A DNA stretch of 16,000 nt, from NCBI GenBank assembly GCA_964439175.1, contig CAYTNQ010000100.1, positions 1 through 16,000 of the forward strand, written 5' to 3'. This DNA comes from an uncultured Anaerolineales bacterium. Lineage in GTDB: Bacteria > Chloroflexota > Anaerolineae > 4572-78 > NAK82. Both the position numbers and the translations under genes were made by a program. The notes beneath the pieces were generated by a model. It saw only the letters and a program-made list of their open reading frames with translations, did no database searches and had not been told where the DNA came from. Positions 1-16,000 of this stretch are shown one piece after another (position 1 is the first letter of the stretch; every line of letters starts with the position of its first letter).

Positions 1-145
1 CGTCGTCCCAAGATGCCGACATGCTCCTAATCCCACGGGCCACCCTGTTTTCCTTGCTTGAAGTGGCCTGTTACTCAACCTAAATTGGACAAAGTCCAGT
101 AATATATATCATCCTGTGTTCCAGAAAGGATAGCCGCACCTGCTT

Positions 146-3538: not shown

Positions 3539-3628
3539 ACTTCACTACCTCCGCGCCAACCATATCAACTGGTTGTGATTGCAGATCCAGGCGTCCACGA
3601 GTTGAACGCAGTGATACCGGCAAATCTG

Positions 3629-5014
3629 TCAGCGACTGGCAGCGTTCGGCGCGAGCACCGTGCAGCGCCACTGCTCAACCGCCTTCCGATACTCGTGTTC
3701 CCTGAACTCTAATCCCTTGTGGGCCAGAGAAACTCTTAACAAGGGAACGGGAATGCCAAACTGTTTAACTAGCCTGACGAGGTCTTTTCCTTCCAGCGTG
3801 CAGCCATCGTTTCTGGCGAGAAGCCGGTCAAGTTGGCGGTAGCCACGAGACAAAGTGCGGTCGAAGGCCTGAGCCTCCGCTTCTATGTATGCCAAAAGTC
3901 TGTCACGTCCACGGCCAAGATTTGGATGCCGTTTCCCATCCAGAACGATTTCGTGGTCAATGAGAGCCGGCAAGCAGCCAAGCGGATCAATCTGCAAGAT
4001 TCGCATCTGGGCCAATACCCTGCGAATCAGGATCCTCATCAGGCGTCTTCGTCCACCTTTTCCAGGCGGAGGTGCGCCGTCGGCAGCCAGGAATACCAAC
4101 GCCCTTAAGTGGTCTACCAGGATACGCTCGCTCTCTCTGGCATTGAAGGCGACTTCTACGTTCCAGTGGGAGTAGAAAGACCTCAAATCTTCAATGAGCG
4201 GTCGTACCGTCTCAATTTCAAAAACCGTCGGCTGACTCTCCAAGATCATTGCCACCCGTTCAGTGCCAATGACCGTTTCAGTAAAGGGATCTGCCATCAA
4301 AGACAGAGCGTCGGTCTCGGCATCTATCTCGGCAAAAATGAAGAGTGAATTGGCGAATTCGACAAACCGTCCACATTTACACCCAGGGCGACAATCAGGT
4401 CTACAACTCAGTTGAGAGCCACGGTCAAAGAACAACTCCGTATTTGGTCCACATTTTCGACTGGTTTCCTGGCCGTCAATCCCTCCGCCCTGCTTCCAGA
4501 AGTTGTGATCTGCCCCCAAGCCAACGACACGATCTTCAGGTAAGCCGAGGTCCCGCCAAGCTTGATAGGTTTCAAGGTCCTGGTTAAAGCGATGTCCCGA
4601 AATTTTCCCGCCAGCGAAGTAGGTTGCCCATAGGCGACTTGAGTCAATCTGCAGATCACGCGTCAAAAATTCCCACATACGTCGTATGGCGATTCGTCTA
4701 GTGTTGTGGCCGAATGAGAAAGCGCCGGGCATCTCAAACAAGCTGAGGTGGAGGTCACTCTTGCCGATTCTGTCCACGTCAAAGTGCCTGAAGCAGTTTT
4801 GTACCATCACGTAGTCATCATCGGGAGATCGACTCCCGAGTTGATCGATGGCGGTCTCGACCTCGGCCAGGCCAGCGCTCATGACAAACGTCATCGGGAT
4901 AGAAGGATGCAGCAGTGAGGTGCCCGGCAACTGCTTGAAGCCCAGGCTTTGATAGTAACGAACAAACCGGTCGCTGATTGCTTGTGGGTGCATAGGTTGG
5001 TCAGCTTTAAGCAC
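3629..5014 (-). CDS. Stand-alone alanyl-tRNA synthetase N-terminal-fragment paralog (class II catalytic core plus tRNA-recognition domain; no editing or C-Ala domains)
   Basis: The 461-aa ORF aligns with AlaRS along the whole catalytic fragment. [14 protein letters not shown] matches [25 protein letters not shown]...[11 protein letters not shown] matches QRCVRAGGKHND...FFEMLGNFSFGDYF. NFWKQGG...[10 protein letters not shown] matches [35 protein letters not shown] matches [28 protein letters not shown] matches [29 protein letters not shown]...[13 protein letters not shown] matches ADHIRACAFLIADG...RGYVLRRIIRRAV. It ends at the position equivalent to about residue 461 of E. coli AlaRS. The GTG start at 5014 overlaps the stop of the upstream SPFH gene by 8 nt; an alternative ATG lies at 4993. 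Confidence 0.8.
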   Translation of the reverse strand: [461 protein letters not shown]

Positions 5015-6020
5015 TCAATCGTTGGTTGTGTTCCCTGCGCGGCACACGCTTCAAAATGGCGAGATCGTCCTTGGTCAGAGGTCGGGATGGTCCAGGGGGA
5101 AGGTCGCTACGAGTTTCTGGACGCGCAGGTTGGCGTTCTGCGGCTGTATCTCGTTTCTTCGCCTTCGGTCTGGTGATGACGTTTGGCCCCTCCCCATCTC
5201 TGGCCATCTCGAACTCGACCTCAGACTCGGTATCTGCATCGTGCTCCAGGAGCAGGCGCTGGACTTTACCCGCGTCCACACCTTCAATGGAAGCCAACAT
5301 TTGAGCCAGCACGGCGTTGGACACGCCAGGAAAGCGCTGGCGCAAGCTATCCACATAGTTCGTCAGCCATTCGCTATCGATCTCCCTACCCCGACGACGT
5401 TTAATAGCTTCCACCACTTCATTTGATAAATTTCGCCCGGTCAGCACGATAGAGTGGGCAGGGTTTAAGATAACCCCCACTGAAGGCAATGTCTGCTCCA
5501 GTTCACGCTTAACCCCTTCAAGGAGCTGGCGGTAACGAGGCCCCCCAGGCGCTAAGGCTATAACGCCATCCATCGACGTAGCCTTAGGTGGCAACGGCAT
5601 GCGTTTTTGTAAATCTGAAATCTGGTTAACCAACGCCTCACGCATTTTTACCTCAACCTGGCGGTGACGCTCCCCCTCCCTGATTTGTACAAGCCTGGCC
5701 AACTTATCCCGGTCGCCCCCGGCTGCCTGCACCGGGTCAAAGCTACACCACAGGTTAAGTGTCAGTTCGTTGGGCACACCAAAGGCAAAGAGTCCAGGTA
5801 CAGTGACCTCGATGGGATGATCCCGTACTTCGACAGTTCGGACGACTCGCTCCAGTCCGGGGATTACCAGCACCAGGCCTGGACCCACTACACGCCGAAA
5901 ACGCCCAAGCCGATAGATCACCAGGCGCTCTTCATGAGGGACCACGCGCAGCGTAGCTCTGAGCACAATCGCGATGAGTATTACCAGCAAGACAACTCCG
6001 ACGATCAACAGGATTTCCAT
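5007..6020 (-). CDS. SPFH/band-7 (stomatin/prohibitin/HflK-like) membrane protein with N-terminal TM anchor and charged, probably disordered C-terminal tail
   Basis: N-terminal hydrophobic helix (EILLIVGVVLLVILIAIVL). Then VVPHEERLVIYRLGRFRRVVGPGLVLVIPGLERVVRTVEVR, which matches the SPFH consensus (vVpegeravvfrfGk..rvlgPGlhfiiPfidrv.kvdlr). The ORF-table start at 6026 is a TTG; the ATG at 6020 is preceded by AAGGAG (8-nt spacer). That Shine-Dalgarno overlaps the TAA stop of the upstream NTPase gene. Confidence 0.75.
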   Translation of the reverse strand: MEILLIVGVVLLVILIAIVLRATLRVVPHEERLVIYRLGRFRRVVGPGLVLVIPGLERVVRTVEVRDHPIEVTVPGLFAFGVPNELTLNLWCSFDPVQAAGGDRDKLARLVQIREGERHRQVEVKMREALVNQISDLQKRMPLPPKATSMDGVIALAPGGPRYRQLLEGVKRELEQTLPSVGVILNPAHSIVLTGRNLSNEVVEAIKRRRGREIDSEWLTNYVDSLRQRFPGVSNAVLAQMLASIEGVDAGKVQRLLLEHDADTESEVEFEMARDGEGPNVITRPKAKKRDTAAERQPARPETRSDLPPGPSRPLTKDDLAILKRVPRREHNQRLSA

Positions 6021-6032
6021 ATGCAAAACTCC

Positions 6033-7049
6033 TTATCCTTCATAGGTGCTCAGAAATTGAGCAAAGAGAGGGCTGAACCAGGTAGTGGGGGCTGACAGCA
6101 AACCGCGGCGGACCAAATGATCTATCGTATCTTGATGGTCTGGTGTATGCTGGCCTCGCGCCGCCAGCAAAGCTACCTCTTGCTCCTGCTCATGCAAACT
6201 CAGCAAAATCCGCCGGCATTCCTGCTGAACGTCAGGCTTGGCTGCAAAGTAGGTCAGTGGATCAGCACCCGACACCCCCTCGTTGACCCAGGTGTTAAAA
6301 ACAATCTTAAGCAACTGAGCATGGCCACCAGCAAGTGCGCGAATTTGGGTAAGCTCTTTGTTGTTAAGAGGTTTACCGGCGACTTCATTCAAGTGCATCA
6401 ACATTTGGCGTGCATCATCCGGAGTGTATGGCTCCAGAGCGTAGATATTGTGGCGAAATAGATCGTAAAACTTCGATCCGTTTTCCATATGATGGCTTTG
6501 TCCCAAAATGTGGGGCAGACGCTTAGTAAAGACCAGATAACTCAGCGCCTCGCGATTGCCTTCACTCCGCAGACCGTTCAATCGCTCCAGCATCGCCAGC
6601 GGTCCCGTCTGGAACACCGCATCGAAATCGTCTAAGACAAACATAACTTTGTGTTTGAGCTCCTGGCAAACCCATCCCAGCCGCGCCCGCAGCGTGCTCA
6701 ATGCACGTTCTTCTTCAGAAATGGGGATTATCTTATTGTCGTCTGGGATTGGGGCAAGTTCCTTCGTCGCTTGGTTCAGCGCATCCAGCATCATCTTCCA
6801 CAGGCTAATGGGATCACCCGGCCAATGTGTTGCGTCCACAATAGGAAAGTGCATACGCTCTACATTTTGCTCAATGTGTTGGGCATTGCGCTGAATATCG
6901 CGCAGGAAGTTGACGAGATTAGATTTGCCAATACCAGCGACACCGACAAAACCCAGAGACTCCCCGCGCAATGCGAAGCGAATGATCAAATTGATTTCAT
7001 CTGCGCGATACGTAGGCTGATAGCGAGGTGAGATTATGTTACGTGTCAT
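6033..7049 (-). CDS. AAA+/P-loop NTPase with C-terminal winged-helix-like region (Orc1/Cdc6- or STAND-like ATPase)
   Basis: Walker A GVAGIGKS (GxxGxGKS). Walker B VMFVLDDFD. Sensor-like LVFTKR. C-terminal DHLVRRGLL helix-turn-helix-like segment. Start is ambiguous: ATG at 7049 (MTRNIISPRY...) or TTG at 7124 as in the ORF table; neither has a strong Shine-Dalgarno. The stop is translationally coupled to the SPFH gene. Confidence 0.7.
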   Translation of the reverse strand: MTRNIISPRYQPTYRADEINLIIRFALRGESLGFVGVAGIGKSNLVNFLRDIQRNAQHIEQNVERMHFPIVDATHWPGDPISLWKMMLDALNQATKELAPIPDDNKIIPISEEERALSTLRARLGWVCQELKHKVMFVLDDFDAVFQTGPLAMLERLNGLRSEGNREALSYLVFTKRLPHILGQSHHMENGSKFYDLFRHNIYALEPYTPDDARQMLMHLNEVAGKPLNNKELTQIRALAGGHAQLLKIVFNTWVNEGVSGADPLTYFAAKPDVQQECRRILLSLHEQEQEVALLAARGQHTPDHQDTIDHLVRRGLLSAPTTWFSPLFAQFLSTYEG

Positions 7050-7167
7050 CTGAAACTTGTCCCATTCGACTATATGAAAGATGACCTTGTGAAGGGAGAG
7101 AGGAAGACAGAAGCTGACCCACAACGGATTGCTCGGGCTTGCGCTGTTTTATGTTATCATAAGTTAG

Positions 7168-7194
7168 ATTACAATATAATCACCCCATTGTCAA
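7168..7194 (-). promoter_or_regulatory. Candidate sigma70-like promoter for the NTPase-SPFH-AlaRS-like operon
   Basis: On the minus strand: TTGACA (7194..7189), 15-nt spacer, TGTAAT (7173..7168). It sits in the AT-rich 211-bp divergent intergenic region. The plus strand of the same region has a TATAAT at 7175-7180 that could serve ybaK. Confidence 0.3.
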
Positions 7195-7245
7195 GAACGA
7201 ATTTCAAGTCGTGGGGCGTTTCAAAGGGAGCAAATAGGAGGGAGT

Positions 7246-7332
7246 ATGGCTCAACTGAAAAAACTGGTTTGTGCAAAAGCCCGAAAAGCTTATAATCGTG
7301 AGTTACGAAAATCCATTGATGCTGGCCGCTGA
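7246..7332 (+). CDS. Hypothetical 28-codon small basic ORF (MAQLKKLVCAKARKAYNRELRKSIDAGR), possible leader or small protein upstream of ybaK
   Basis: ATG at 7246 is preceded by AGGAGGGAG (Shine-Dalgarno, about 4-5 nt spacer). It is in the same frame as ybaK. TGA at 7330-7332 is followed by 3 nt and then the ybaK ATG. The product is rich in Lys and Arg. It is below the ORF-track length cutoff. Confidence 0.3.
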   Translation: MAQLKKLVCAKARKAYNRELRKSIDAGR

Positions 7333-7335
7333 TCT

Positions 7336-7824
7336 ATGAGTAACGACAAGACAAACGCCATGCGCGTCCTGGATGCGCGCAAAATCCCGTATCAAGTTTT
7401 CACCTTTTCGCCCGACATCCACTCGGCCGCTGGCGTGGCTGAGGCCATCGGACTGCCACCCCGGCAAGTTTACAAAACCCTGGTGGTGCTGCGTTCCCAG
7501 GGAAAGCCGATGTTGATTATGGTCGCCGGCGACCGAGAGCTGGATCTGAAACGGGTAGCCAAGGCAGTAGGCGAGAAGAAAGTGCGCATGGCTTCGCACA
7601 AAGAGGCGGAAGCGCTGACCGGCCTGCAGGTGGGAGGTATTTCGGCGTTGGCGCTCCTCAATCGCCCATTCGAGGTGTTCATCGACCGTCCCGCCACTGA
7701 ACTGTCCCACCTGTTGGTCAGCGCCGGCAAACGGGGAATCAACCTGCGGCTGGCCGTCCCAGACCTCATCCGCGTCACCCGTGCCCACATCATCGAGGCG
7801 ACCGAACAAGCCGAACATTCCTGA
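7336..7824 (+). CDS. ybaK: YbaK/ProX-family aminoacyl-tRNA trans-editing deacylase (Cys-tRNA(Pro) deacylase-like)
   Basis: 162 aa. N-terminus TNAMRVLDARKIPYQVFTF matches E. coli YbaK TPAVKLLEKNKISFQIHTY. PPRQVYKTLVV matches the conserved (R)VFKTLV motif. Length matches stand-alone YbaK (about 159 aa). Confidence 0.85.
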   Translation: MSNDKTNAMRVLDARKIPYQVFTFSPDIHSAAGVAEAIGLPPRQVYKTLVVLRSQGKPMLIMVAGDRELDLKRVAKAVGEKKVRMASHKEAEALTGLQVGGISALALLNRPFEVFIDRPATELSHLLVSAGKRGINLRLAVPDLIRVTRAHIIEATEQAEHS

Positions 7825-9361
7825 TTTGGAAATCGTCCCAGGCAAATTCATCGTGTTGCAAGTCCGGTGCCAGACGGGCGGCAGTGACGGTTAATTCGTT
7901 GTAGCCGGGCCGCAAGGCCGAGACCGGTACGTCACGACGCACGGTCAACCAGCGACGGGCGAAATCTTCCATTGGCAGGTCAGGCGACAGGGCCACATCG
8001 TTAACCACCAGACTGGCCCCGATCTCGTTCTGTTGCATCAATTCCAATACCAACACCCAATCGGAGGTCCCAGGGTCGCGCAGGTAAAAGCCGCCAGTCC
8101 AGGCGATACTTGGCTTGTGCCCCGCAAAGAGAGGCCACCACGGCGACAGGAGGTCGCTGTCGCCCAGGTGCACTACCGCGTCCGGCGCCAGTATCGGCAC
8201 CACCCCGACCTCAGCCCCAGTTGCAAACTGCTCAGAGTGATCGCCACCTTTTGCCTCCAGCCCCCTGCCCCTGGCCCCCAACTTCTTGCTCCCCTCCGCC
8301 TGGCGCCACATCTCATATGCTGGCCGGGGATCCCCTGTCGAGTCAATCAGGCTATAGCCTCCAAAAGGATCTCCTGGCTCTGGCTGCGACAGATTCCACA
8401 CCGTCACCAATTCCACCCAGGGCCATTCGCGGCGGACGCGGTCCAAGGCACCAGTCAGATACGCTCCCTGCTGCGCCAGGCTCACACCGAGGCCCGGCTG
8501 ATCGGGCGGCGCGTCCACTGTCCAACCCATCTCAGTAATCCACACCGGCTTATCGCCATCGCCCTGTTCGAGCATAATGGCCCGCAGATCCTCGAGGCGA
8601 GCAAAAACCAGCCCGTCGTTGGCACTTTCTGGCGCGTCAGGAGGCAGTCCGAAGCCATACGGGTGTGCGCCCAGCACGTCGAAGTAAGGAGCAGCGCCCG
8701 CCTGATACATGCCCCGCAAAAAGATGCGTTCATCCATGGCACGCTCGCCATCGCCGTTGGTCGGGGCCAGGCCCGCCGCAATCACCAGCGCGTCGGGGTC
8801 ACCCGCCTTCACTGCCTGGTAGCCAGCGCGTAACAACTGCACATAAGCAGCCGGATCGGGCGCATGGCCACCCCACTCCAGCGCCAGGTTGGGCTCATTC
8901 CAGATGATATAGGCTCGGATGCGACCCCGGTAGCGCCAGGCAACTCGCTCCACGAAGTGCCGATAGTCTCCCAGCGCCTCAGGCGGTGCGTTGAGCGGTG
9001 GTTGCACATCGCTGACCCAGGGCGGATGCTGGTCGAGGCGCACCACCAAATCCAGGCCATAATATTCGGCGCCAGCGACTACCTGGTCAGTCACTTCCCA
9101 GTGGAACTGGCCCCGGGTGGGCTCGATCTCGCGCCAGGCAAAGACCTGCACCACGGTGTCAAACCCGGCTGCCCGCGCCAGCGCCAACGAACGGTCATCG
9201 GCGCGTAAGGTGTGGGCTGCCAGTCGCAGCCCTCGCTCCCCCGACCGCCGGGACAGCATGTCGATTGGGTCAGGTGAGGTGCGAGTGCACCCAGTTCCGA
9301 TCAGCAGCCAGGCAAACGCCAACAGAATAAGGGAGGCGATAGTGTGTACCAAACGCTGCAT
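7790..9361 (-). CDS. Secreted clan GH-A (GH5-like) glycoside hydrolase, probable lipoprotein, with extra C-terminal domain
   Basis: N-terminal signal peptide ending LLIGTGC (lipobox-like). FAWREIEPTRGQFHW and IIWNEPN (acid/base Glu in the NEP motif). WITEMGW (nucleophile Glu in the TE motif). The last ~150 aa have no recognisable domain. Its 3' end overlaps the ybaK 3' end by 35 nt (convergent). Confidence 0.75.
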   Translation of the reverse strand: MQRLVHTIASLILLAFAWLLIGTGCTRTSPDPIDMLSRRSGERGLRLAAHTLRADDRSLALARAAGFDTVVQVFAWREIEPTRGQFHWEVTDQVVAGAEYYGLDLVVRLDQHPPWVSDVQPPLNAPPEALGDYRHFVERVAWRYRGRIRAYIIWNEPNLALEWGGHAPDPAAYVQLLRAGYQAVKAGDPDALVIAAGLAPTNGDGERAMDERIFLRGMYQAGAAPYFDVLGAHPYGFGLPPDAPESANDGLVFARLEDLRAIMLEQGDGDKPVWITEMGWTVDAPPDQPGLGVSLAQQGAYLTGALDRVRREWPWVELVTVWNLSQPEPGDPFGGYSLIDSTGDPRPAYEMWRQAEGSKKLGARGRGLEAKGGDHSEQFATGAEVGVVPILAPDAVVHLGDSDLLSPWWPLFAGHKPSIAWTGGFYLRDPGTSDWVLVLELMQQNEIGASLVVNDVALSPDLPMEDFARRWLTVRRDVPVSALRPGYNELTVTAARLAPDLQHDEFAWDDFQIRNVRLVRSPR

Positions 9362-9396
9362 CAGAATCCCCTTACGCTATACGGCATACAAAGTAC

Positions 9397-9473
9397 TGCG
9401 TATTGCGCGCTTCGCGTGCGTATTGCGTGTTGCGTAGTGGATATTGCGTCCGGGATGCTGAGTGCGCGCAATA
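9397..9473. repeat. TATTGCG direct repeats (9401, 9421, 9442; about 20-bp spacing) plus inverted copy CGCAATA (9467-9473) upstream of the glycosidase gene
   Basis: Read directly from the sequence: TGCGTATTGCG at 9397-9407 and 9417-9427, TATTGCG at 9442-9448, and CGCAATA at 9467-9473. They lie in the 127-bp region between the glycosidase start (9361) and the oxidase stop (9489). Confidence 0.35.
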
Positions 9474-9488
9474 GGCAGGTTCCAAGAT

Positions 9489-11108
9489 TCACGGAAATAC
9501 CAGCTTGCCCGGATTCATCACACCTTCGGGGTCGAAAGTTCGGCACAGGCTGCGCAGGGCTGCCATACCCACTTTCCCCTTTTCGGCCGGCAGGTAGGAG
9601 GTGTGGTCGACGCCCACGCCATGTTGGTGGCTGATGGTACCGCCGGCGGCGACGATGACATCGCTGGCGGCGGCCTTGAGAAGACGCCAGCGCCGCAGGG
9701 TCTCGCCGGGGTCTATGCCGTGCGGGCTGGAGTCAGCCAGAGGCAGTCGAAAGAGGTAGGTGACGTAGATGCTGGCACCGTCGGTGTAAATGTGAGACAA
9801 ATGGGCGAAGACATGGACACGCTCCCCAACCTCCTTTAGCCCATCCCGCAGGGCGCGCCGTATGGCATCCGCTGTGGGGAAAACGTCTAACCAGCGGACG
9901 GCAGTCTCCAGTGTATCCACAGCGTAGCCTCGCTCCCAGAGCGTGTTGCGCAGGTAGGGAGTGCGAAAGCGGCTCTTGCGCCACTCTTCCCCCAACTTAC
10001 GTCCCACACAGACACCGCCGTAAGCGCGGGCGACTTCCATCACCTGCTTGCGGGTTGCTTTCACTGCGTCGTCACACCCAGTGATACCAACAAAAAGTAT
10101 ACACCTGTTCGGACCCAGTCCACGCAGACGCAGCAGCCGCTCCAACAAGCTCACCAGCCCTTCGTGGCCGGCCAGGGCCAGGGTGGTGGTCGTCTCGACA
10201 GTGTCGCTCAGGCGCAACATTGAAAGAGGCAGCCGGGCCTGAGCCATCTCGCGGACGGCAGCCACACCCTGCGCCCAAACCGGGAAGAAGATGGCGTGGA
10301 ACTCCTCCCGTTCGGGCAGCGGGCTGACCCGCAGAGTGGCCTGGGTGATGATCCCCAGCCGCCCCTCGGAGCCAAGCACAAGCTGCCGCAGGTCAGGCCC
10401 CGCGGCACTGGCAGGGAAAGGTGGCAGATTCAGCCGCCCCATGGGCGAGAGCAGCCGTCCGCCTGCGAACAACTCTTCAATGCGTCCATAATACAGGGAT
10501 TGCTGTCCACTGGAGCGGGTGGCGATCCAGCCGCCTAGCGTAGAGAGCTCAAAGGATTGGGGAAAGTGCCCCAAGGTATAGCCTCGCGCCCGCAGACTTG
10601 CCTCCAGGCGTGGACCGTCTACCCCGGCACCAAAAGTCGCGAGCCGGCTCACCTCGTCGAGGGCAAACCGGCGGTTGATGCGGCCCATATCCATGGTGAG
10701 AACCGGGGCATGGCCTGGAGACGGATTTACGTGACCCACGACGCTCGTCCCGCCGCCATAAGGAATGAGGTGGGCACCAACCCTGGCAGCGAATGTGATA
10801 AGTTGCGCTACCTCTTCCTCAGATGAAGGGAAGGCAATGCCATCCGGGAAGGCCGGAATATGCCCACTCCGAATAGCAACCCAGTCAGGTAGACTCTGGC
10901 CGCAAGCGTGGCACAAGCGCGCTTCGGCGTCAGTGGTTACCAGCGGATAGGCAGGCAGGCGACCGCGAGGGACGGCGCGAAGCACTTGGGCTAACGCGGC
11001 GTCTTGCGGCGGCGTCGCTGGGCCGAGAACCTCCTCCAGAAAGCGAAGCGCCGAGGGAGAAAGGGGATACGCAACGGCCTGGTCACCCCATCCATTCCAA
11101 CGTCGCAT
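9489..11108 (-). CDS. FAD-linked oxidase, alkyldihydroxyacetonephosphate synthase (AGPS)-like (FAD_binding_4 plus C-terminal oxidase domain)
   Basis: N-terminal RRWNGWGD motif characteristic of AGPS-like enzymes. PYGGGTSVVG FAD-binding segment. C-terminal HQHGVG typical of vanillyl-alcohol-oxidase-family FAD oxidases. ATG at 11108 (TTG at 11111 in the ORF track) is preceded by GGAGG at 11118..11114 with a 5-nt spacer. Confidence 0.8.
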   Translation of the reverse strand: MRRWNGWGDQAVAYPLSPSALRFLEEVLGPATPPQDAALAQVLRAVPRGRLPAYPLVTTDAEARLCHACGQSLPDWVAIRSGHIPAFPDGIAFPSSEEEVAQLITFAARVGAHLIPYGGGTSVVGHVNPSPGHAPVLTMDMGRINRRFALDEVSRLATFGAGVDGPRLEASLRARGYTLGHFPQSFELSTLGGWIATRSSGQQSLYYGRIEELFAGGRLLSPMGRLNLPPFPASAAGPDLRQLVLGSEGRLGIITQATLRVSPLPEREEFHAIFFPVWAQGVAAVREMAQARLPLSMLRLSDTVETTTTLALAGHEGLVSLLERLLRLRGLGPNRCILFVGITGCDDAVKATRKQVMEVARAYGGVCVGRKLGEEWRKSRFRTPYLRNTLWERGYAVDTLETAVRWLDVFPTADAIRRALRDGLKEVGERVHVFAHLSHIYTDGASIYVTYLFRLPLADSSPHGIDPGETLRRWRLLKAAASDVIVAAGGTISHQHGVGVDHTSYLPAEKGKVGMAALRSLCRTFDPEGVMNPGKLVFP

Positions 11109-11136
11109 CAACGCCTCCGGTTTCTTCGTGACCGAA

Positions 11137-11255
11137 TTATCCCAAAACGATTTGGGATAATTTTGGATAAATTATAGAGATATTCTAAGAATCGGCGACC
11201 AACTTGGCATAAATTTGGGATAAACTTGGGATAACTTTGGGATAACTTTGGGAAT
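11137..11255. promoter_or_regulatory. Array of TTGGGATAA-type 9-mers with strict 11-bp periodicity plus a perfect 10/4/10 palindrome, in the oxidase promoter region; candidate operator or iteron array
   Basis: Palindrome TTATCCCAAA-acga-TTTGGGATAA at 11137-11160. Direct copies start at 11152, 11163 (TTTGGATAA), 11204 (TTGGCATAA), 11215, 11226, 11237 and 11248 (TTGGGAAT). Every offset within a cluster is exactly 11 bp. A TATAAT sits on the minus strand at 11176..11171 between the two clusters. GANTC sites at 11189-11193 and 11252-11256. Confidence 0.6.
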
Positions 11256-11271
11256 CTCAGACGTGATTGGC

Positions 11272-12645
11272 TTATTTCAGTATGTAATACGTGCCCCGTT
11301 TGTCGCCCACTTTGAGCAGCAAGCCTTTGTCTACCAGATCGGCCAAGTCGAGGCGCAAGGTCTCGGGGGAGACGTTGGGGCAGATGGTGCGGTAGTCGCG
11401 GTTTGTGATGCGCCCGAACTCACGCACGTGAGCCAGCGCCCGCATCTGGCGCTCGTTCATATTCTGCTCCCATGGTGGGGATGGGCGCCGTTCGCGCACA
11501 TTGCGGAGGGTAACGCTGAAAGAGTAAGGCGTGGCTTTGAAATCGGGTGGCGGGTGGCCGCGCTGCAACATCTCTTCGATCATGCGATCGATGCCCAACC
11601 CCAACTCCTCAATGTAGCCCCACTGAAAGAGGCCAGCCACGATGCGGGGATTGCGCGAAAAGTGCTCTTCGACGATGTTATCTACCGTGATATAGCCGGG
11701 TAGGCCGCCGGGGCTGATCACTTCCAGCCGATCTTCGAACATGCGGATCTCCACGCGCCGGCCGGAGAGGCGGTAATCCCGATGGGCGATGGCGTTTACC
11801 AGCGCTTCGCGTACGGCGAAGCTGGGATATTCAGGTTGCTCCTCCCGCTGAAGGCCGACTACCACGGCCCCTACGCGCATCTCTTCCCAAACGATGTTCC
11901 ACGCTGATTCCAGCAAGCGAGCTAACGGTCCTTCCAATTCGGCGCGCCGGCCATATCCGGCCAAACCATCCTTGCCACGCGGCTCGCTGCCCACAAAGCG
12001 CACGAAGACAATGCCGCTCTGGGATATGAACTCCTGCGGGCACTTGCCGAAGAGAAGTAAACCCGAAACGGTGGGCGTGCCGTCCGGGGTTAAGGCACCG
12101 ATACTGATTAAGTGATCGTCCACTGTGCCGCTAACCGGACGCCGTCCTCGCTCTGCCCGCTTCTCCAGATATTCTTCAATGACGGCGTCGTCCATATCGG
12201 TGCGGCGCGCGCCGCCGACTGGCTCCGCCTCGAAGTCGCCACTGGACTTGGTGGCAGCGAGCTGGCGGATAGCGTCGCCCCCCAGCGGCCGGTTCCCGGG
12301 ACCGTGGCGGATGAGCACCCGGCCATCGGCTAGGCTATGTAATTCCGGGCTGCGGGCCACACTGATGTGCACTACGGTGCCCTGGGGCAATTCGGCCTGC
12401 CCCCATTCGGTAGCGACGGGAGGACGGCACAATCCAAGAGCTTGCTGAAGAAGCCCTTCCACATCCTCGTCCAGCACATCGCCGGTCACTTGCCCCTCCG
12501 GCGTGATACCAATCAGAATGGTGCCACCATCGGCGTTGGCGAAGGCGACCAATGTCTCGGCCAGCCCCTCCACCTCAGGATCCGGCAAAAAGGCGGTGGT
12601 TTGATTCGGCCCGCGAGCTAGCAAATTAGAAAGGTGAGTTCGCAT
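11272..12645 (-). CDS. AlbA_2 (Schlafen-like divergent AAA) plus HATPase_c_4 plus C-terminal winged-HTH putative transcriptional regulator (often misannotated as a RecG-like helicase)
   Basis: N-terminal LAETLVAFANADGGTILIGI (AlbA_2 signature). REALVNAIAHRDY (HATPase_c_4 signature). C-terminal ITNRDYRTICPNVSPETLRLDLADLVDKGLL winged helix. Confidence 0.85.
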   Translation of the reverse strand: MRTHLSNLLARGPNQTTAFLPDPEVEGLAETLVAFANADGGTILIGITPEGQVTGDVLDEDVEGLLQQALGLCRPPVATEWGQAELPQGTVVHISVARSPELHSLADGRVLIRHGPGNRPLGGDAIRQLAATKSSGDFEAEPVGGARRTDMDDAVIEEYLEKRAERGRRPVSGTVDDHLISIGALTPDGTPTVSGLLLFGKCPQEFISQSGIVFVRFVGSEPRGKDGLAGYGRRAELEGPLARLLESAWNIVWEEMRVGAVVVGLQREEQPEYPSFAVREALVNAIAHRDYRLSGRRVEIRMFEDRLEVISPGGLPGYITVDNIVEEHFSRNPRIVAGLFQWGYIEELGLGIDRMIEEMLQRGHPPPDFKATPYSFSVTLRNVRERRPSPPWEQNMNERQMRALAHVREFGRITNRDYRTICPNVSPETLRLDLADLVDKGLLLKVGDKRGTYYILK

Positions 12646-12761
12646 CCTATCTCACTGCACCTAGACTCTACAAGAGGACTAATCAACTTCTCCAACCATT
12701 CTACTTCATCACATCTTCTTTTCCAAAATTTGAACAAATACCAAGTCCTCCCAAACGTAGC

Positions 12762-13865
<1,104 letters not shown>

Positions 13866-13907
13866 TTACACCGGCCCTTGTTCTACAATCTACCCCCCCT
13901 GACTAAG

Positions 13908-15071
13908 CTAAATCTGATCCCAAAAACCTAGCTGGTGAGAGGGGCGGTGACCATTGAGCAAAATGAAGGGAGCAGTCCGGCCCGCGACGGCGCCCAAGGC
14001 ACGCAAGTCAGACAGGTTCTGCAGGTGACCCTGGCGGCGCGCACGCAAAATGGCGTCAGCGCTGCGCGGACCAATGCCCGGCACGCGCAATAACTCCCTG
14101 CGGCTGGCCCGGTTGATTTCTAACGGCTGCTCCGCCAGGTGCTGGCGCGCCCAGGCCAGCTTGGGGTCGACGCCAACCGGCAGCAGGCCCCGGTGGTCGA
14201 AAGGGAGTTCGTCCAGGGTGAAGCCGTAGAAACGCAGGAGCCAGTCAGCCTGGTAGAGGTGGTGTTGGCGGATGGGAGGCGTGCGATCAGCACCGGCCAG
14301 TGGCGTGTCGGGCACAGGGTTGAAGCCAGAGTAGTAGGCACGGGCTAATTTCACCTGGCGGTAGAGTTGGTCGGCAGCCATCAGTAGCTCGCGGTCGCTC
14401 TCGCCCGCCGGGCCGACGACGAATTGCGTCGTCAGGCTAGGTGTTTTGGCCAGCAGCCCTTGTGCCCTGGGAATCTCGTAAGCCCAGCGCATGGCCTGCA
14501 GCAACTCCCCGGCAAAGTCCTTTTGCGGGGCCAGGCGGGCCAACCTGGCCGCGTTCGCGCCTTCCAGGTTAATGGATACCCGGTCGGCCAGGCGAAGCGC
14601 ATGCTCTACCTGCGACCGTTCGGCCCCCGGCATGATCTTCAAATGGACGTAGCCGCGATATGCGTATTTACGCCGGATCAACTCGACGCTGGCCAACATC
14701 GGATCCATGGTTTTGGTCCCGCCACCAACGACCCCGCTGCTGAGAAACAGCCCTGTGACGACCCCCGCCTGCTGCATACGGTCGAATTCGCGGGCCAGTT
14801 CGTCGGGGCTCAAACGGACGCGGACGGTGCTGCCCCGCCCCGCCCGAAAGGGACAGTAGTGACAGTTCCGCTCGCAAGCGCTGGTCTGCATGGTGCGCAG
14901 CACGGTCATCGGACCGTCCGGCCGCTGAACCTGATAGAGAGACCTGTCCAGAAAATCGCGCTTGGCTTGTTGGCGAGGCGTCAGCATCGGTTCGCCATCA
15001 CACTCAAGCCTGCTCTCATGGGCCAGCAGTTGCAGCTTCTGTTGAGCGTCAGGTGTGATAAGCGTGTGCAT
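13908..15071 (-). CDS. Radical SAM protein with C-terminal helix-hairpin-helix (putative DNA modification/repair radical SAM family)
   Basis: CxxxCxxC motif (CERNCHYCPF) about 65 aa from the N-terminus. C-terminal LRVPGIGPRSADAIL HhH motif. Length 387 aa. Confidence 0.7.
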   Translation of the reverse strand: MHTLITPDAQQKLQLLAHESRLECDGEPMLTPRQQAKRDFLDRSLYQVQRPDGPMTVLRTMQTSACERNCHYCPFRAGRGSTVRVRLSPDELAREFDRMQQAGVVTGLFLSSGVVGGGTKTMDPMLASVELIRRKYAYRGYVHLKIMPGAERSQVEHALRLADRVSINLEGANAARLARLAPQKDFAGELLQAMRWAYEIPRAQGLLAKTPSLTTQFVVGPAGESDRELLMAADQLYRQVKLARAYYSGFNPVPDTPLAGADRTPPIRQHHLYQADWLLRFYGFTLDELPFDHRGLLPVGVDPKLAWARQHLAEQPLEINRASRRELLRVPGIGPRSADAILRARRQGHLQNLSDLRALGAVAGRTAPFILLNGHRPSHQLGFWDQI

Positions 15072-15102
15072 ACTCCTATTATACGAACGTTTGTTCGGTA
15101 CG

Positions 15103-16000
15103 TCAAGAAGATATCTCGCGAGCCAGGCTCGCCCATTCGTCCAGACTGAGCGTCTGGGCGCGGCGTCGGGGATCTACCCCAGCCCGAGTCAGAGCGCCGA
15201 CCATTTCGGTCGGGGACAGATCCAGGCCGGCAGCTAAGGCATTCTTGAGTTGCTTGCGCTTCTGTCCAAACCCGGCGCGGACGACGCGGAAGAAAGTCTC
15301 TGCGTCGGGCACCTGGACCGGCGTTGCGTCGTAGGTGTCAATACGGACCACTGCCGAATCCACTTTGGGAGGTGGGACGAAGGCCCCGGCAGGGATTTTG
15401 GCGACGATCCGCGGCTGGCCGTAGAACCGTACGCTCACCGCCAGCATACTCATGTCACCCGGTCTGGCGACCATCCGCTCGGCAACCTCACGCTGCACGG
15501 TCAGCACCAGCCGCCGGGGGGGCGGGTCCGCCTCCAGCAGATGGCGGATGGCGGCCGAAGTGATGTAATAGGGCAAGTTGGCGACGACGACGTATATAAG
15601 AGGAGACTGGAGATTGGGAGATTGGAGATTGGCAGATTGCCTGCCCCCCGGCCCGCTGGCGCGAGCCCGGGCGGGCTGGCGGGTAGGCCAGGGGAGATTG
15701 GGGGGCTGAGGGCCACGCATTAAGGCGGCCGGGTCAAGCTGCAAGATGTCCCCCTGTACCAATTCTAGATGGGGCAGGTACGCCAATTCCTCCCGCAGCA
15801 GGCCGATCATCGCCTGATCCAGTTCGACGGCGACGACGCGTCCGGCAGCCCGGGCCAACAAGCGGGTAAGAGTCCCCAGGCCGGGTCCGATCTCCAGCAC
15901 CGCCATCTCGGATGATAGTTCCGCTGCCTCGACGATCTTGCGTAGAATATTGGGGTCAGCCAGAAAGTGCTGCCCCAGCCCTTTACGCGGGCGCAGATTG
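15103..16000 (-). CDS. rsmA: 16S rRNA (adenine1518/1519-N6)-dimethyltransferase RsmA/KsgA, 5'-truncated by the window edge, with an approx 35-aa Pro/Arg-rich insertion
   Basis: VLEIGPGLGTLT (SAM motif I). VVANLPYYITS (KsgA NLPY motif). The reading frame stays open from 15906 to the window end, and the upstream codons translate to NLRPRKGLGQHFLADPNILRKIVEAAELSSE, the canonical KsgA N-terminus. The true start is therefore beyond 16000. Confidence 0.85.
   Translation of the reverse strand, partial: NLRPRKGLGQHFLADPNILRKIVEAAELSSEMAVLEIGPGLGTLTRLLARAAGRVVAVELDQAMIGLLREELAYLPHLELVQGDILQLDPAALMRGPQPPNLPWPTRQPARARASGPGGRQSANLQSPNLQSPLIYVVVANLPYYITSAAIRHLLEADPPPRRLVLTVQREVAERMVARPGDMSMLAVSVRFYGQPRIVAKIPAGAFVPPPKVDSAVVRIDTYDATPVQVPDAETFFRVVRAGFGQKRKQLKNALAAGLDLSPTEMVGALTRAGVDPRRRAQTLSLDEWASLAREISS
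15602..15639. repeat. Tandem heptamer (G)AGATTG x4-5 inside rsmA, encoding the SANLQSPNLQSP part of the insertion
   Basis: ggagactgg-agattgg-gagattgg-agattgg-cagattg, read directly at 15602-15639. Confidence 0.6.

What the first reader, a model, noticed from the sequence alone, without database searches (positions are those of the whole stretch)
11137..11255. Helical-phase (11-bp) array of seven TTGGGATAA-like boxes plus a perfect 10-4-10 palindrome between the promoter and start of the AGPS-like oxidase gene
There are two clusters of direct repeats with exactly 11-bp centre-to-centre spacing, so the boxes would lie on one face of the helix. They flank a TATAAT (minus strand) -10 element. A perfect palindrome, TTATCCCAAAacgaTTTGGGATAA, lies between the -10 and the Shine-Dalgarno. 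This is the architecture of a cooperative operator or iteron array. The array ends 11 bp from the 3' end of the AlbA_2/HTH regulator gene. The box resembles a DnaA box on the complementary strand (TTATCCCAA versus TTATCCACA, 7 of 9; the TTTGGATAA copy is 8 of 9), so DnaA-dependent regulation, or even an origin-like element, is an alternative. Two GANTC sites, the predicted target of the nearby CcrM-family methylase, fall inside the array and suggest possible methylation-sensitive regulation.
Basis: partly seen in the sequence, partly recalled or inferred. Interest (0 to 1): 0.6.

Follow-up and report, generated by a model that had tools for sequence, protein, structure and literature searches.

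The report
Regulator's own binding-site array after its gene
The repeated TTATCCCAA boxes are real and are most likely the docking sites of the DNA-binding protein encoded just upstream, because related proteins in bacteria and at least one archaeal genome bin often carry their own different 11-bp repeat array right after their stop codon.

Summary
The 160-bp spacer holds seven TTATCCCAA boxes (at most 1 mismatch) plus one degenerate box. Five are spaced exactly 11 bp apart, and there is a perfect 12-4-12 palindrome.

They also extend it.
- In Anaerolineae the same boxes start 4-60 bp after the stop codon of this gene's orthologues, and are never found upstream of it.
- In 75 family members found by protein similarity alone, 40 have 10-12-bp-phased direct repeats just after the stop. 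Controls give 8/69, 11/75 and 2/75.
- The repeat motif changes with the winged-helix sequence. Two archaeal paralogues in one locus each have their own array.

In the window the array also covers the predicted -35 and the early transcribed region of the FAD-oxidase gene, so repression is the likely outcome.

The DnaA alternative is not excluded. The same box is the only repeated motif upstream of dnaA in six relatives, it sits at four dnaN promoters, and Anaerolineae DnaA lacks the canonical Asp433. An origin at this site is unlikely. The GANTC idea has no support. All binding is inferred, not shown.

The parts
11204..11256 (-). Distal tandem array. Five head-to-tail units with exact 11-bp spacing: GATTCCCAA (degenerate), three TTATCCCAA, and TTATGCCAA. 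It begins 15 nt after the stop codon of the AlbA_2/HATPase_c_4 gene.
   Evidence: The same array (gAGATTCCCAAAg plus 3-4 boxes) is conserved after the orthologous stop codon in L029, L075, L089 and L200-L204.
11135..11170 (-). Promoter-proximal triad. Two head-to-tail boxes (11162-11170 TTATCCAAA, 11152-11160 TTATCCCAA) plus one inverted box (11137-11145). Together they form the perfect 12-4-12 palindrome 11135-11146 / 11151-11162. The triad lies between the predicted -10 and the Shine-Dalgarno of the FAD-oxidase gene.
   Evidence: The direct-direct-inverted arrangement is the commonest architecture in relatives. The inverted box is missing in the 97%-identical relative L200.
11182..11210 (-). 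Predicted sigma-70-type promoter of the FAD-oxidase gene: -35 ATGCCA (11205-11210, inside the TTATGCCAA box), 17-nt spacer, -10 TAGAAT (11182-11187).
   Evidence: 1 site found against 0.2 expected. The -10 position is conserved as GAGAAT, TATAAT or TAGAAT in L029, L075 and L200. This is a consensus match only; no transcription start site data exist.
11171..11176 (-). It is a possible alternative -10 element.
   Evidence: Not conserved in L029, L075 or L200.
11106..11118 (-). Shine-Dalgarno GGAGG (11114-11118) and ATG (11106-11108) of the FAD-linked oxidase gene (9489-11108).
   Evidence: FAD_binding_4 plus FAD-oxidase_C.
11272..12645 (-). Gene for the 457-aa AlbA_2 (Schlafen-like) / HATPase_c_4 (GHKL-like) / C-terminal winged-helix protein, the proposed binder. 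The winged helix is about residues 398-457 (nt 11275-11454). The predicted recognition helix is residues 427-439, PETLRLDLADLVD.
   Evidence: AlphaFold model with mean pLDDT 79.6 and a helix / short strand / two helices / two-strand wing (H-b-H-H-b-b) topology at the C-terminus. Foldseek hits are 3LMM, Schlafen N-domains, histidine-kinase ATPase domains, and MarR/AspA winged helices.
12762..13859 (-). CcrM-like N6-adenine methyltransferase with a RAMA domain, upstream of the AlbA_2 gene. In relatives its stop overlaps the AlbA_2 start by 4 bp.
   Evidence: (NCBIfam CcrM model 561 bits, below its cut-off of 830).
11189..11193 (.). GANTC site (GAATC) between the predicted -35 and -10.
   Evidence: Conserved in L029 and L200, not in L075.
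11252..11256 (.). GANTC site inside the degenerate first unit of the array.
   Evidence: Present in 5 of 7 close relatives.

Best explanation
The spacer is a composite binding array for the C-terminal winged-helix domain of the AlbA_2/HATPase_c_4 protein encoded immediately upstream.

The distal five units are this clade's version of a trait common in the sampled part of this protein family. That trait is a head-to-tail array of short boxes with about 11-bp (one helical turn) spacing, starting at or a few nucleotides after the gene's own stop codon, with a sequence matched to that protein's winged helix. The proximal three boxes are the same site reused as an operator of the downstream FAD-oxidase gene.

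Proposed mechanism. Several protein copies bind side by side on one face of the DNA. Occupancy covers the -35 hexamer, which lies inside the TTATGCCAA box, and the first ~10-45 bp of the transcribed region. This shuts off, or at least gates, the FAD-oxidase promoter. It probably also blocks read-through from the methylase/AlbA_2 operon.

Placing the site directly behind a C-terminal DNA-binding domain would favour binding in cis, because in prokaryotes the protein is made next to its gene. It would also keep the protein and its site genetically linked.

Shown: the repeats, their phasing and conservation, their position relative to the gene, and the co-variation of motif with protein. Inferred: that the winged helix is the binder, cooperativity, the sign of regulation, and any role of the ATPase-like and Schlafen-like domains.
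For: 1. Lineage-wide motif. An exact-pair scan of 185,579 genomes gave at least 119 loci, overwhelmingly Anaerolineae.

2. Position relative to the gene. Thirty of those loci carry a 60-91%-identical orthologue of the window gene. In 24 of them the boxes begin 4-200 bp (mostly 4-60 bp) after its stop, always direct-first. None lie within the 400 bp upstream of the gene (one box at its start in L032). In L005, L009, L030 and L090 the gene on the other side is convergent, so the array is tied to this gene and not to a downstream promoter.

3. Unbiased sample. Eighty metagenome loci were found by protein pattern only. Phased 6-mer direct repeats in the 120 nt after the stop occur with 2 or more copies in 40/75 and with 3 or more copies in 13/75. 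Controls: 8/69 and 0/69 upstream, 11/75 and 0/75 inside the gene, 2/75 and 0/75 shuffled. With a strict score, 15/75 against 2/69, 0 and 0; the period is 11 in 12 of 15, and the start is 0-14 nt from the stop in 11 of 15.

4. Motif tracks the winged helix:
- ETLRLDL class: TTATCCCAA.
- ETIRRDL class, also labelled Anaerolineae: T(T)ATCCCACA (L155, L157, L192, L194, L230).
- L123/L127 (45% identical): TTGCGTCAG.
- L139/L153 (44% identical): AGTTGGCGATT.
- L134/L135: TGGCGCGAT.
- L136/L145: TTCCGGCA.
- L124: six GTCGCAAATAA.

5. One Altiarchaeota-labelled locus has two paralogues with two arrays. L007a has four TTATCCCAAAT. Its winged helix is 55% identical to the window's (by my own manual count from the alignment, not a tool output) against 33% for the whole protein. 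L007b has three TGAAACGATTAA starting in its stop codon. L195 (33% GC) has three TTATGCCAA at its stop.

6. Boxes are conserved while the 2-bp spacers vary, which argues for selection on the 9-mer rather than recent slippage.

7. The promoter prediction overlaps the boxes.

8. The model shows a canonical winged helix.
Against: - No binding experiment exists for any member of this family. The closest structure, 3LMM, is annotated only as an uncharacterized protein, and the literature searches found no functional study.
- About 41% of ETLRLDL-class loci in the unbiased sample have no box within 300 bp downstream. The four plasmid-borne family members inspected lack clean arrays. The trait is therefore common but not universal.
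- The box is 7/9 to the DnaA consensus. It is also the only repeated motif upstream of dnaA in relatives, often as single boxes that do not fit the tandem grammar. DnaA may therefore bind the same DNA, instead of or as well as this protein.
- A site 3' of the regulator gene is an unusual place for an operator.
- The sign of regulation and the real transcription start are unknown.
Confidence: 0.6

Rival explanations
1. The boxes are the DnaA boxes of Anaerolineae, a lineage-specific variant of TTATCCACA. The window array would then be a non-origin DnaA-box cluster that titrates DnaA and/or puts the FAD-oxidase promoter under DnaA control. The neighbouring AlbA_2 protein would not be the binder.
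For: - The match is 7/9 to TTATCCACA, and 9-mers separated by 2 bp are the classic DnaA array grammar (established knowledge of E. coli oriC low-affinity arrays).
- In six Anaerolineae lineages the 550-760-bp dnaA-upstream spacer carries 3-7 [T/A]TATCCCAA boxes. These include two conserved composites, TTATCCCAA-tgttaaaa and T[TA]T[TA]CCCAA-ccttaaaa. There is no canonical box and no other shared repeated 7-mer apart from an AT-rich one.
- Tandem pairs sit between -10 and RBS of dnaN in 4 loci. That makes 7 of about 100 Anaerolineae loci at dnaA or dnaN, against about 0.06 expected by chance (my own estimate, assuming ~3,500 intergenic regions per genome).
- Canonical TTATCCACA boxes sit in phase within variant arrays in L012 and L038.
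- All 116 Anaerolineae DnaA homologues lack Asp at the E. coli-433 position (T, K, S, A or R), and most have Ser at 435. Residues 399, 423, 433, 434, 435 and 439 are the base-contacting ones (PMC7561715, PMC5043019).
Against: - It cannot explain why other subfamilies of the same protein carry quite different 11-bp arrays at the same place, nor the two paralogues with two arrays in the Altiarchaeota-labelled locus L007 (archaea have no DnaA), nor the low-GC L195 case.
- Among exact-pair loci the AlbA_2 3' end is about 10 times more frequent than dnaA (30 against 3). That is the pattern of a factor's own gene, not of an origin.
- The box does not change with the residue at position 433.
- The CAA end replaces the ACA end, which in model organisms is strongly required.
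- With about 20 different subfamily motifs, one resembling a DnaA box at 7/9 has roughly a 5% chance (own estimate).
Confidence: 0.17
2. The site is, or is part of, a chromosomal replication origin.
For: Clustered DnaA-box-like repeats with an AT-rich stretch of about 33 bp between the two groups.
Against: - There is no dnaA or dnaN in the 16 kb.
- All 11 large genes on both sides are on the same strand.
- There is no GC-skew turning point at 11.2 kb.
- The spacer is only 160 bp, and the AT-rich part coincides with a promoter.
- Homologous arrays in relatives sit in spacers of about 57-150 bp, some between convergent genes.
- Far better origin candidates exist upstream of dnaA in relatives.
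Confidence: 0.02
3. The repeats are a slippage-generated tandem repeat or an RNA-level element (a 3'UTR or 5'UTR hairpin, or a terminator) with no sequence-specific DNA-binding partner.
For: - The arrays must be transcribed as the 3'UTR of the upstream gene.
- The palindrome can fold as a 12-bp hairpin.
- Tandem repeats can arise by slippage.
- An 11-nt unit is not a multiple of 3, as in phase-variable loci.
Against: - The RNA fold is not better than shuffles (z = -1.2), and no Rfam family reaches threshold.
- The palindrome is absent in the 97%-identical relative L200.
- The 9-bp boxes are conserved while the spacers vary.
- The same motif is kept between proteins only 44-65% identical, and it also occurs at unlinked promoters and in phage contigs.
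- Most subfamily arrays are direct repeats that cannot form hairpins.
Confidence: 0.06
4. The promoter is switched by CcrM-type GANTC methylation.
For: - A CcrM-like methylase lies two genes upstream and is translationally coupled to the AlbA_2 gene in relatives.
- One GANTC lies between the predicted -35 and -10.
Against: - Two sites in 160 bp is not significant.
- The sites are lost in L075 and L201.
- The methylase accompanies the AlbA_2 gene only in the closest clade: 3 of 119 loci.
- The methylase's specificity has not been tested.
Confidence: 0.05

Closest known systems
DnaA-box arrays (oriC low-affinity arrays, datA, B. subtilis DnaA-box clusters)
   Same: - 9-bp boxes separated by 2 bp (11-bp phasing), including oppositely oriented groups.
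- 7/9 identity to TTATCCACA.
- The same box marks dnaA and dnaN upstream regions in relatives.
   Different: - Positions 7-8 are CA instead of AC.
- The array is tied to the 3' end of an unrelated gene.
- Sister subfamilies of that gene carry unrelated motifs at the same place, including in an archaeal genome bin.
Plasmid iterons with their Rep gene, and cis-acting RepA of IncFII/R1, whose binding site lies downstream of repA
   Same: Head-to-tail repeats next to the gene of a winged-helix protein. A site placed 3' of the gene, which favours action in cis (established knowledge of R1 RepA/CIS).
   Different: - The units are 11 bp, not 17-22 bp.
- The protein is not a member of any known Rep family.
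- The locus is chromosomal and conserved across a whole class.
- There is no adjacent unwinding element.
Partition centromeres bound by small DNA-binding proteins (parC/ParR of R1 with ten 11-bp repeats; AspA of pNOB8; parS next to parB)
   Same: - 11-bp direct repeats bound cooperatively on one helical face.
- The site is encoded next to the binder's gene.
- The C-terminal domain has weak fold similarity to AspA (4RS8/5K5Q, E about 0.01-0.03).
- Family members sit beside parA/parB on two Chlorohelix megaplasmids.
   Different: - There is no partner motor gene in the window.
- The fold match is the generic winged-helix level.
- The Chlorohelix copies lack clean 3' arrays.
Direct-repeat operators of winged-helix regulators (OmpR/PhoB type)
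   Same: Tandem 10-11-bp-phased half-sites overlapping -35, and head-to-tail binding.
   Different: - A different protein family, with Schlafen-like and GHKL-like domains and no receiver domain.
- The main site lies after the regulator's own stop codon rather than in a promoter.
DIP2311 of Corynebacterium diphtheriae (PDB 3LMM), COG2865-type 'RecG-like' / 'ATP-binding' proteins
   Same: The same three-domain architecture (phmmer E 1.8e-20, Foldseek E 3.6e-26).
   Different: 3LMM is annotated only as an uncharacterized protein. No DNA site or function was found for any member in the searches made here.

Membership tests
DnaA-box cluster / DnaA-regulated promoter | 9-mer matching the stringent consensus TTATNCACA (TTWTNCACA) | tested here: not met
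   The consensus box TTATCCCAA differs at positions 7 and 8. The best copy, TTATCCAAA, differs at position 8. Consensus as quoted in PMC5043019.
DnaA-box cluster / DnaA-regulated promoter | The same box is used at the organism's own dnaA/dnaN/oriC region | tested here: met
   In relatives, not in the window organism itself. Six dnaA-upstream regions and four dnaN promoters carry the box, with no canonical boxes.
DnaA-box cluster / DnaA-regulated promoter | DnaA with a DNA-reading surface compatible with the box | tested here: inconclusive
   Asp433 is replaced in 116 of 116 homologues, and Thr435 is mostly Ser. This fits altered specificity, but the box does not co-vary with the residue at 433.
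DnaA-box cluster / DnaA-regulated promoter | Physical binding by DnaA | not testable with these tools
   Needs EMSA, footprinting or ChIP.
Chromosomal origin (oriC) | Next to dnaA/dnaN or at the GC-skew switch, with divergent gene orientation | tested here: not met
   No dnaA or dnaN by Pfam or tblastn. All genes are on the - strand. There is no skew inflection at the site.
Chromosomal origin (oriC) | AT-rich unwinding element beside the box cluster within a spacer of several hundred bp | tested here: not met
   The spacer is 160 bp. The only AT-rich stretch (about 33 bp) coincides with the predicted promoter.
Cognate operator of an adjacent transcription factor | The site is linked to the factor's gene across genomes | tested here: met
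   24/30 genome loci and 17/29 unbiased metagenome loci of the same winged-helix class have boxes just after the stop.
Cognate operator of an adjacent transcription factor | Site sequence co-varies with the DNA-binding domain | tested here: met
   At least seven winged-helix classes each have their own motif, and two paralogues in L007 have two arrays.
Cognate operator of an adjacent transcription factor | The site overlaps core promoter elements of a regulated gene | tested here: inconclusive
   It overlaps a consensus-predicted -35 and the region downstream of the -10. No transcription start data exist.
Cognate operator of an adjacent transcription factor | Physical binding by the factor | not testable with these tools
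   No experimental data for the family were found.
Plasmid-type iteron origin | A Rep-family initiator gene beside the iterons | tested here: not met
   Pfam, NCBIfam and PADLOC give AlbA_2, HATPase_c_4, weak HTH_DeoR, and pAgo-fusion-like hits. No Rep family is matched.
ParR/parC-type centromere | A partner partition NTPase gene in the same operon | tested here: not met
   None in the window. parA/parB are neighbours only on the Chlorohelix plasmids.
Phase-variable simple sequence repeat | Identical units, including spacers, and no conserved core across species | tested here: not met
   Spacers vary (at, gt, ag, ac) while the 9-mer is kept across a class.
CcrM/GANTC methylation-controlled promoter | Conserved GANTC in the promoter, plus a cognate methylase | tested here: inconclusive
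   A methylase is present. The sites are partly conserved and not enriched.

The most novel reading that the evidence does not exclude
AlbA_2 (Schlafen-like) / GHKL-ATPase-like / winged-helix proteins may form a widespread and so far uncharacterised class of site-specific DNA-binding ATPases. Each would carry its private 11-bp 'home' array at its own stop codon, as a cis loading or nucleation site comparable in logic to parS/ParB or RepA/CIS.

In Anaerolineae one member has become a conserved single-copy chromosomal factor. Its box is the same sequence that marks the dnaA-upstream origin-like region and the dnaN promoter. It would therefore act with, or compete with, a DnaA that has lost the canonical Asp433 base contact. 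That would be a new layer of replication-initiation control.
Probability: 0.25. Interest if true: 0.85.

Novelty: new variant of a known kind. Interest (0 to 1): 0.68.

Why it matters
- **A function for an uncharacterised family.** This family, usually mis-annotated as 'RecG-like helicase' or 'ATP-binding protein', has thousands of members in bacteria, with members also in genome bins labelled archaeal. No function or DNA target was found in the literature searched. The finding gives each subfamily a predicted DNA target that can be read straight from the genome, next to the stop codon. The family becomes directly testable by EMSA, DAP-seq and helix swaps.
- **An unusual regulatory layout.** The site sits after the gene rather than before it. 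This may reflect cis-loading, or a linked 'domain plus site' module that moves together.
- **A question about replication in a poorly studied class.** What do Anaerolineae DnaA proteins, which lack the conserved Asp433, recognise? Is the TTATCCCAA box at dnaA and dnaN read by DnaA, by this protein, or by both?

Tried and rejected
- **Exact-sequence look-ups of the two window proteins** found nothing, so the source contig could not be extended.
- **The primary DnaA-DNA structure paper (PMC153737)** is not held. The contact residues were taken from two reviews or papers that cite it.
- **A search for 'Asp433/His434/Thr435'** gave only irrelevant papers.
- **Test for co-variation between the DnaA residue at position 433 (S, T, K, A) and the box upstream of dnaA:** no co-variation, so it is uninformative.
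- **Phototrophicus methaneseepsis complete genome:** the record starts at dnaA, so its upstream region was not retrievable.
- **Plasmid-borne family members** (Chlorohelix, Aeromonas, two Hymenobacter) were inspected to generalise the 3' array. None shows a clean array; Aeromonas and one Hymenobacter show weak repeats. The trait is therefore not universal.
- **Rfam and RNA folding** of the spacer gave nothing significant.
- **Literature searches** for HATPase_c_4, AlbA_2, COG2865, DIP2311 and 'DnaA box' with Chloroflexi found no description of these arrays or of an Anaerolineae DnaA box.
- **Co-occurrence of the TTATCCCAA-class and TATCCCACA-class proteins in one genome** could not be checked.
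Full report
**1. What is in the window**

All large ORFs in the 16 kb are on the minus strand. The finding lies in the 160-bp spacer between two genes.
- Upstream is a 457-aa protein with Schlafen-like AlbA_2 and HATPase_c_4 domains (11272-12645).
- Downstream is a FAD-linked oxidase (9489-11108).

Read on the gene-sense strand, the spacer runs as follows:
- stop codon, then 15 nt;
- GATTCCCAAAG, TTATCCCAAAG, TTATCCCAAGT, TTATCCCAAAT, TTATGCCAAGT, with exact 11-bp spacing;
- 29 nt;
- TATAAT;
- TTATCCAAAA, TTATCCCAAA, tcgt, TTTGGGATAA;
- SD, then ATG.

Support from the repeat tools:
- TRF reports a period-11 array.
- The repeat finder reports a perfect 12-4-12 palindrome.
- The motif count is 12 against 2.5 expected, with 0 of 200 shuffles reaching it.

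**2. The motif is lineage-wide**

Nearly all are MAGs of the Chloroflexota class Anaerolineae (Promineifilaceae, Ardenticatenaceae, Aggregatilineales, Caldilineaceae, Phototrophicaceae and others). By my own estimate, about 17 chance hits are expected in 596 Gb, which accounts for the scattered other taxa. A common architecture is two direct boxes, 5-8 nt, then one or two inverted boxes.

**3. Link to the AlbA_2 gene**

- Thirty of the 119 loci encode a 60-91%-identical orthologue of the window protein.
- In 24 of them the boxes start 4-200 bp (mostly 4-60 bp) after its stop codon, direct boxes first. None of the 30 has a box within the 400 bp upstream of the gene, apart from one at the start of the gene in L032.
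- The gene beyond the array varies: GAF histidine kinase, acyl-CoA dehydrogenase, a VWA/GATase1-like protein, and the FAD oxidase. In L005, L009, L030 and L090 it is convergent. The array therefore belongs with the AlbA_2 gene and not with a particular downstream promoter.
- In close relatives (80-97% identity) the tandem part is conserved directly after the stop, while the downstream gene changes.

**4. The 3' array is common across the sampled part of the family, and the motif co-varies with the protein**

A protein-pattern scan of metagenomes gave 80 further family members at 29-68% identity to an archaeal member. They were chosen without reference to repeats.

Repeat counts against controls:

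| Measure | After the stop | Upstream | Inside the gene | Shuffled |
|---|---|---|---|---|
| Phased (10-12 bp) 6-mer direct repeats in 120 nt, 2 or more copies | 40/75 | 8/69 | 11/75 | 2/75 |
| Same, 3 or more copies | 13/75 | 0/69 | 0/75 | 0/75 |
| Strict self-match score | 15/75 | 2/69 | 0 | 0 |

With the strict score, the period is 11 in 12 of 15 arrays, and 11 of 15 start within 14 nt of the stop.

The motif differs between subfamilies and follows the C-terminal winged helix:
- ATTTGCGTCAG / TTGCGTCAGGT (L123, L127)
- GTCGCAAATAA, six copies (L124)
- GTGTTGAGTGC, four copies (L131)
- AGTTGGCGATT (L139, L153)
- TGGCGCGATAC (L134, L135)
- TTCCGGCA (L136, L145)
- T(T)ATCCCACA for the ETIRRDL class (L155, L157, L192, L194, L230)
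- TTATCCCAA for the ETLRLDL class

Proteins that share a motif are only 44-85% identical.

Three further cases strengthen the link:
- In the Altiarchaeota-labelled locus L007, two tandem paralogues each have their own array: four TTATCCCAAAT after L007a, and three TGAAACGATTAA beginning in the stop codon of L007b.
- L007a is 33% identical to the window protein overall. By my own manual count from the alignment, it is 55% identical in the winged helix, with the same ITNRDYR...SPET-RLDL...YYIL pattern.
- A 33%-GC contig (L195) has three TTATGCCAA at its stop.

A single host factor such as DnaA cannot explain these observations. A cognate protein-site pair can.

The structural data fit a DNA-binding role:
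- The AlphaFold model (mean pLDDT 79.6) shows a canonical winged helix at residues 398-456, with recognition helix 427-439.
- Foldseek finds 3LMM, Schlafen N-domains, histidine-kinase ATPase domains and MarR/AspA-type winged helices.

**5. How it probably works in the window**

- The promoter scan predicts one site: -35 ATGCCA, 17 nt, -10 TAGAAT.
- The -35 lies inside the TTATGCCAA box. Its G variant is conserved in L029 and L075.
- The proximal triad lies about 10-45 bp downstream of that -10.
- Occupancy of both box groups would therefore occlude RNA polymerase and block elongation, including read-through from the upstream methylase/AlbA_2 operon. In relatives those two genes overlap by 4 bp.

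These mechanistic steps are inference. The position of the family array at the stop codon of a protein whose DNA-binding domain is C-terminal suggests cis-preferential loading and tight genetic linkage of domain and site. This too is inference.

**6. The DnaA question**

Evidence that keeps DnaA in play:
- The same box is strongly over-represented at replication genes. Three loci have it upstream of dnaA and four at dnaN, among about 100 Anaerolineae loci.
- In six lineages the dnaA-upstream spacer contains 3-7 boxes and two conserved composites next to AT-rich DNA. There is no canonical DnaA box and no other shared repeat.
- Anaerolineae DnaA proteins never have Asp at the E. coli-433 position (116 of 116 homologues) and mostly have Ser at 435. 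Both are base-contacting residues in the model systems.
- Canonical boxes occur in phase with variant boxes in L012 and L038.

It is therefore plausible that DnaA reads TTATCCCAA in these organisms.

Evidence that weakens it:
- The box is unchanged whichever residue occupies position 433.
- The AlbA_2-linked site is about ten times commoner than the dnaA-linked one among exact pairs.
- The motif family TTAT[CG]CCA[AC] also occurs with relatives of the protein outside Anaerolineae.

I cannot separate three readings: 'AlbA_2 protein only', 'both proteins share the box', and 'DnaA only'. I rank them in that order.

An origin at this position is unlikely for four reasons:
- gene orientation and skew;
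- spacer size;
- absence of dnaA or dnaN in the window;
- the existence of better candidates upstream of dnaA in relatives.

**7. Other rivals**

- RNA-level or slippage explanations fail on several counts: box-against-spacer conservation, loss of the palindrome in L200, an unremarkable fold and no Rfam match.
- GANTC control is unsupported statistically and only partly conserved.

**8. Comparison with known systems, and novelty**

The array works like a cooperative operator or iteron, and shares grammar with three known kinds of site:
- DnaA arrays;
- OmpR-type direct repeats;
- parC/ParR centromeres.

It fails the membership tests for oriC, plasmid Rep-iteron origins, partition loci and phase-variable repeats; the details are in the membership table.

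The protein belongs to the DIP2311/COG2865 type, for which I found no described function or target.

The window locus is thus a new member of the operator kind. The pattern seen in about half of the sampled family (a private 11-bp array abutting the stop codon and co-varying with the winged helix) appears to be a new variant not described in the literature I could search.

**9. Limits**

- All binding is inferred.
- The trait is frequent but not universal: 53% of the unbiased sample, and absent in several plasmid-borne members.
- MAG taxonomy labels, including 'Altiarchaeota', are taken from the records as deposited.
They gave strong hits at E about 1e-113.

Noticed in passing
window 12762-13859 and 11272-12645; L201-L204: The CcrM-like methylase (N6_N4_Mtase plus RAMA) and the AlbA_2 gene overlap by 4 bp (ATGA) in 80-86%-identical relatives. 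This suggests a translationally coupled operon. In the window they are 116 bp apart. The pairing is limited to the closest clade.
   Followed up: partly
L028, L041, L042, L210, L228, L229 (dnaA-upstream spacers): Two composite elements are conserved upstream of dnaA across Anaerolineae lineages whose DnaA proteins are 61-65% identical: TTATCCCAA-(a)tgttaaaa and T[TA]T[TA]CCCAA-ccttaaaa(tgttaaaa). They look like origin-type box plus AT-rich modules.
   Followed up: partly
P0121-P0240 (DnaA homologues); L028/L041/L042 DnaA: Anaerolineae DnaA proteins have GGR[T/K/S/A/R]H[S/T]TV instead of the near-universal GGRDHTTV. The Asp of the conserved Asp-His dyad is never present in 116 sequences.
   Followed up: partly
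L002, L077, L114, L097: A tandem box pair sits directly after a TATAAT-like -10 and before the RBS of dnaN in four genomes. dnaA and dnaN are not adjacent in these genomes.
   Followed up: partly
L205/L212 and L211 (Candidatus Chlorohelix allophototropha plasmids NZ_CP128401, NZ_CP128402): On both megaplasmids an AlbA_2-family gene lies beside the parA/parB partition genes and an HTH-protein gene of about 340 aa. This hints at a role in replicon maintenance. No clean 3' array is present there. Two 61-nt repeats with a palindrome lie between parB and the gene on plasmid 2.
   Followed up: partly
L213-L227 (IMG/VR viral contigs): Fifteen viral contigs carry the exact tandem pair. Several high-GC ones place it next to promoter-like hexamers. 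L227 (35% GC) has eight phased boxes (three TTATCCAAC plus five TTATCCCAA). None of them encodes the AlbA_2 protein or DnaA.
   Followed up: partly
window 1-7400 versus 7400-16000: GC content steps from about 52% to about 62% near position 7400. This may mark a boundary of horizontally acquired DNA (GAF histidine kinase, truncated AlaRS-like gene, SPFH, AAA).
   Followed up: no
window 9489-11108 versus L201/L202: The FAD-oxidase gene is absent in the 86%-identical relative. There the glycosyl-hydrolase-like gene (window 7790-9361) directly follows the array. The oxidase gene with its promoter-proximal boxes is therefore an insertion or a deletion between relatives.
   Followed up: partly
L133, L140, L138, L142 and others: In some family members the ORF reads through into repeat-like DNA. 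This gives repetitive C-terminal tails (AKMTQKMTQK, AKITQKITQ, TKGLTKGSKGS), as if the array had been absorbed into the coding region.
   Followed up: no
L143 (after stop); L161 and L183: L143 has four GTAGACA(A/G) units with an 8-bp period, followed by four inverted copies, which could form a long hairpin. L161 and L183 share a GTGCGACGCAC palindrome after the stop, resembling a REP element or terminator.
   Followed up: no
window 11272-12645 (protein): PADLOC's pAgo model PDLC02394 and the Argonaute-associated SIR2-PNTD models match the AlbA_2/HATPase_c_4 part (E 8e-27). Some prokaryotic Argonaute systems therefore contain a homologous module.
   Followed up: no
window 15602-15639: A GGAGATT(G) tandem repeat (7-8-bp period, about 5 copies) lies inside the rsmA/ksgA-like methyltransferase gene (15103-15906).
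   Followed up: no
window 3629-5014: A 461-aa protein matches only the N-terminal catalytic part of class II alanyl-tRNA synthetase (tRNA-synt_2c positions 2-423 of 552). It is a truncated AlaRS-like paralogue.
   Followed up: no
L040 5932-6112: In a Thermoplasmata-labelled contig, a short remnant encoding only the winged-helix end (...GAKRGTAYTFT*) is followed by three boxes (GTATCCCAA, TTATCCCAA, TTATCCCAA) among toxin-antitoxin genes. This is consistent with the C-terminal domain and its site moving or decaying together.
   Followed up: partly
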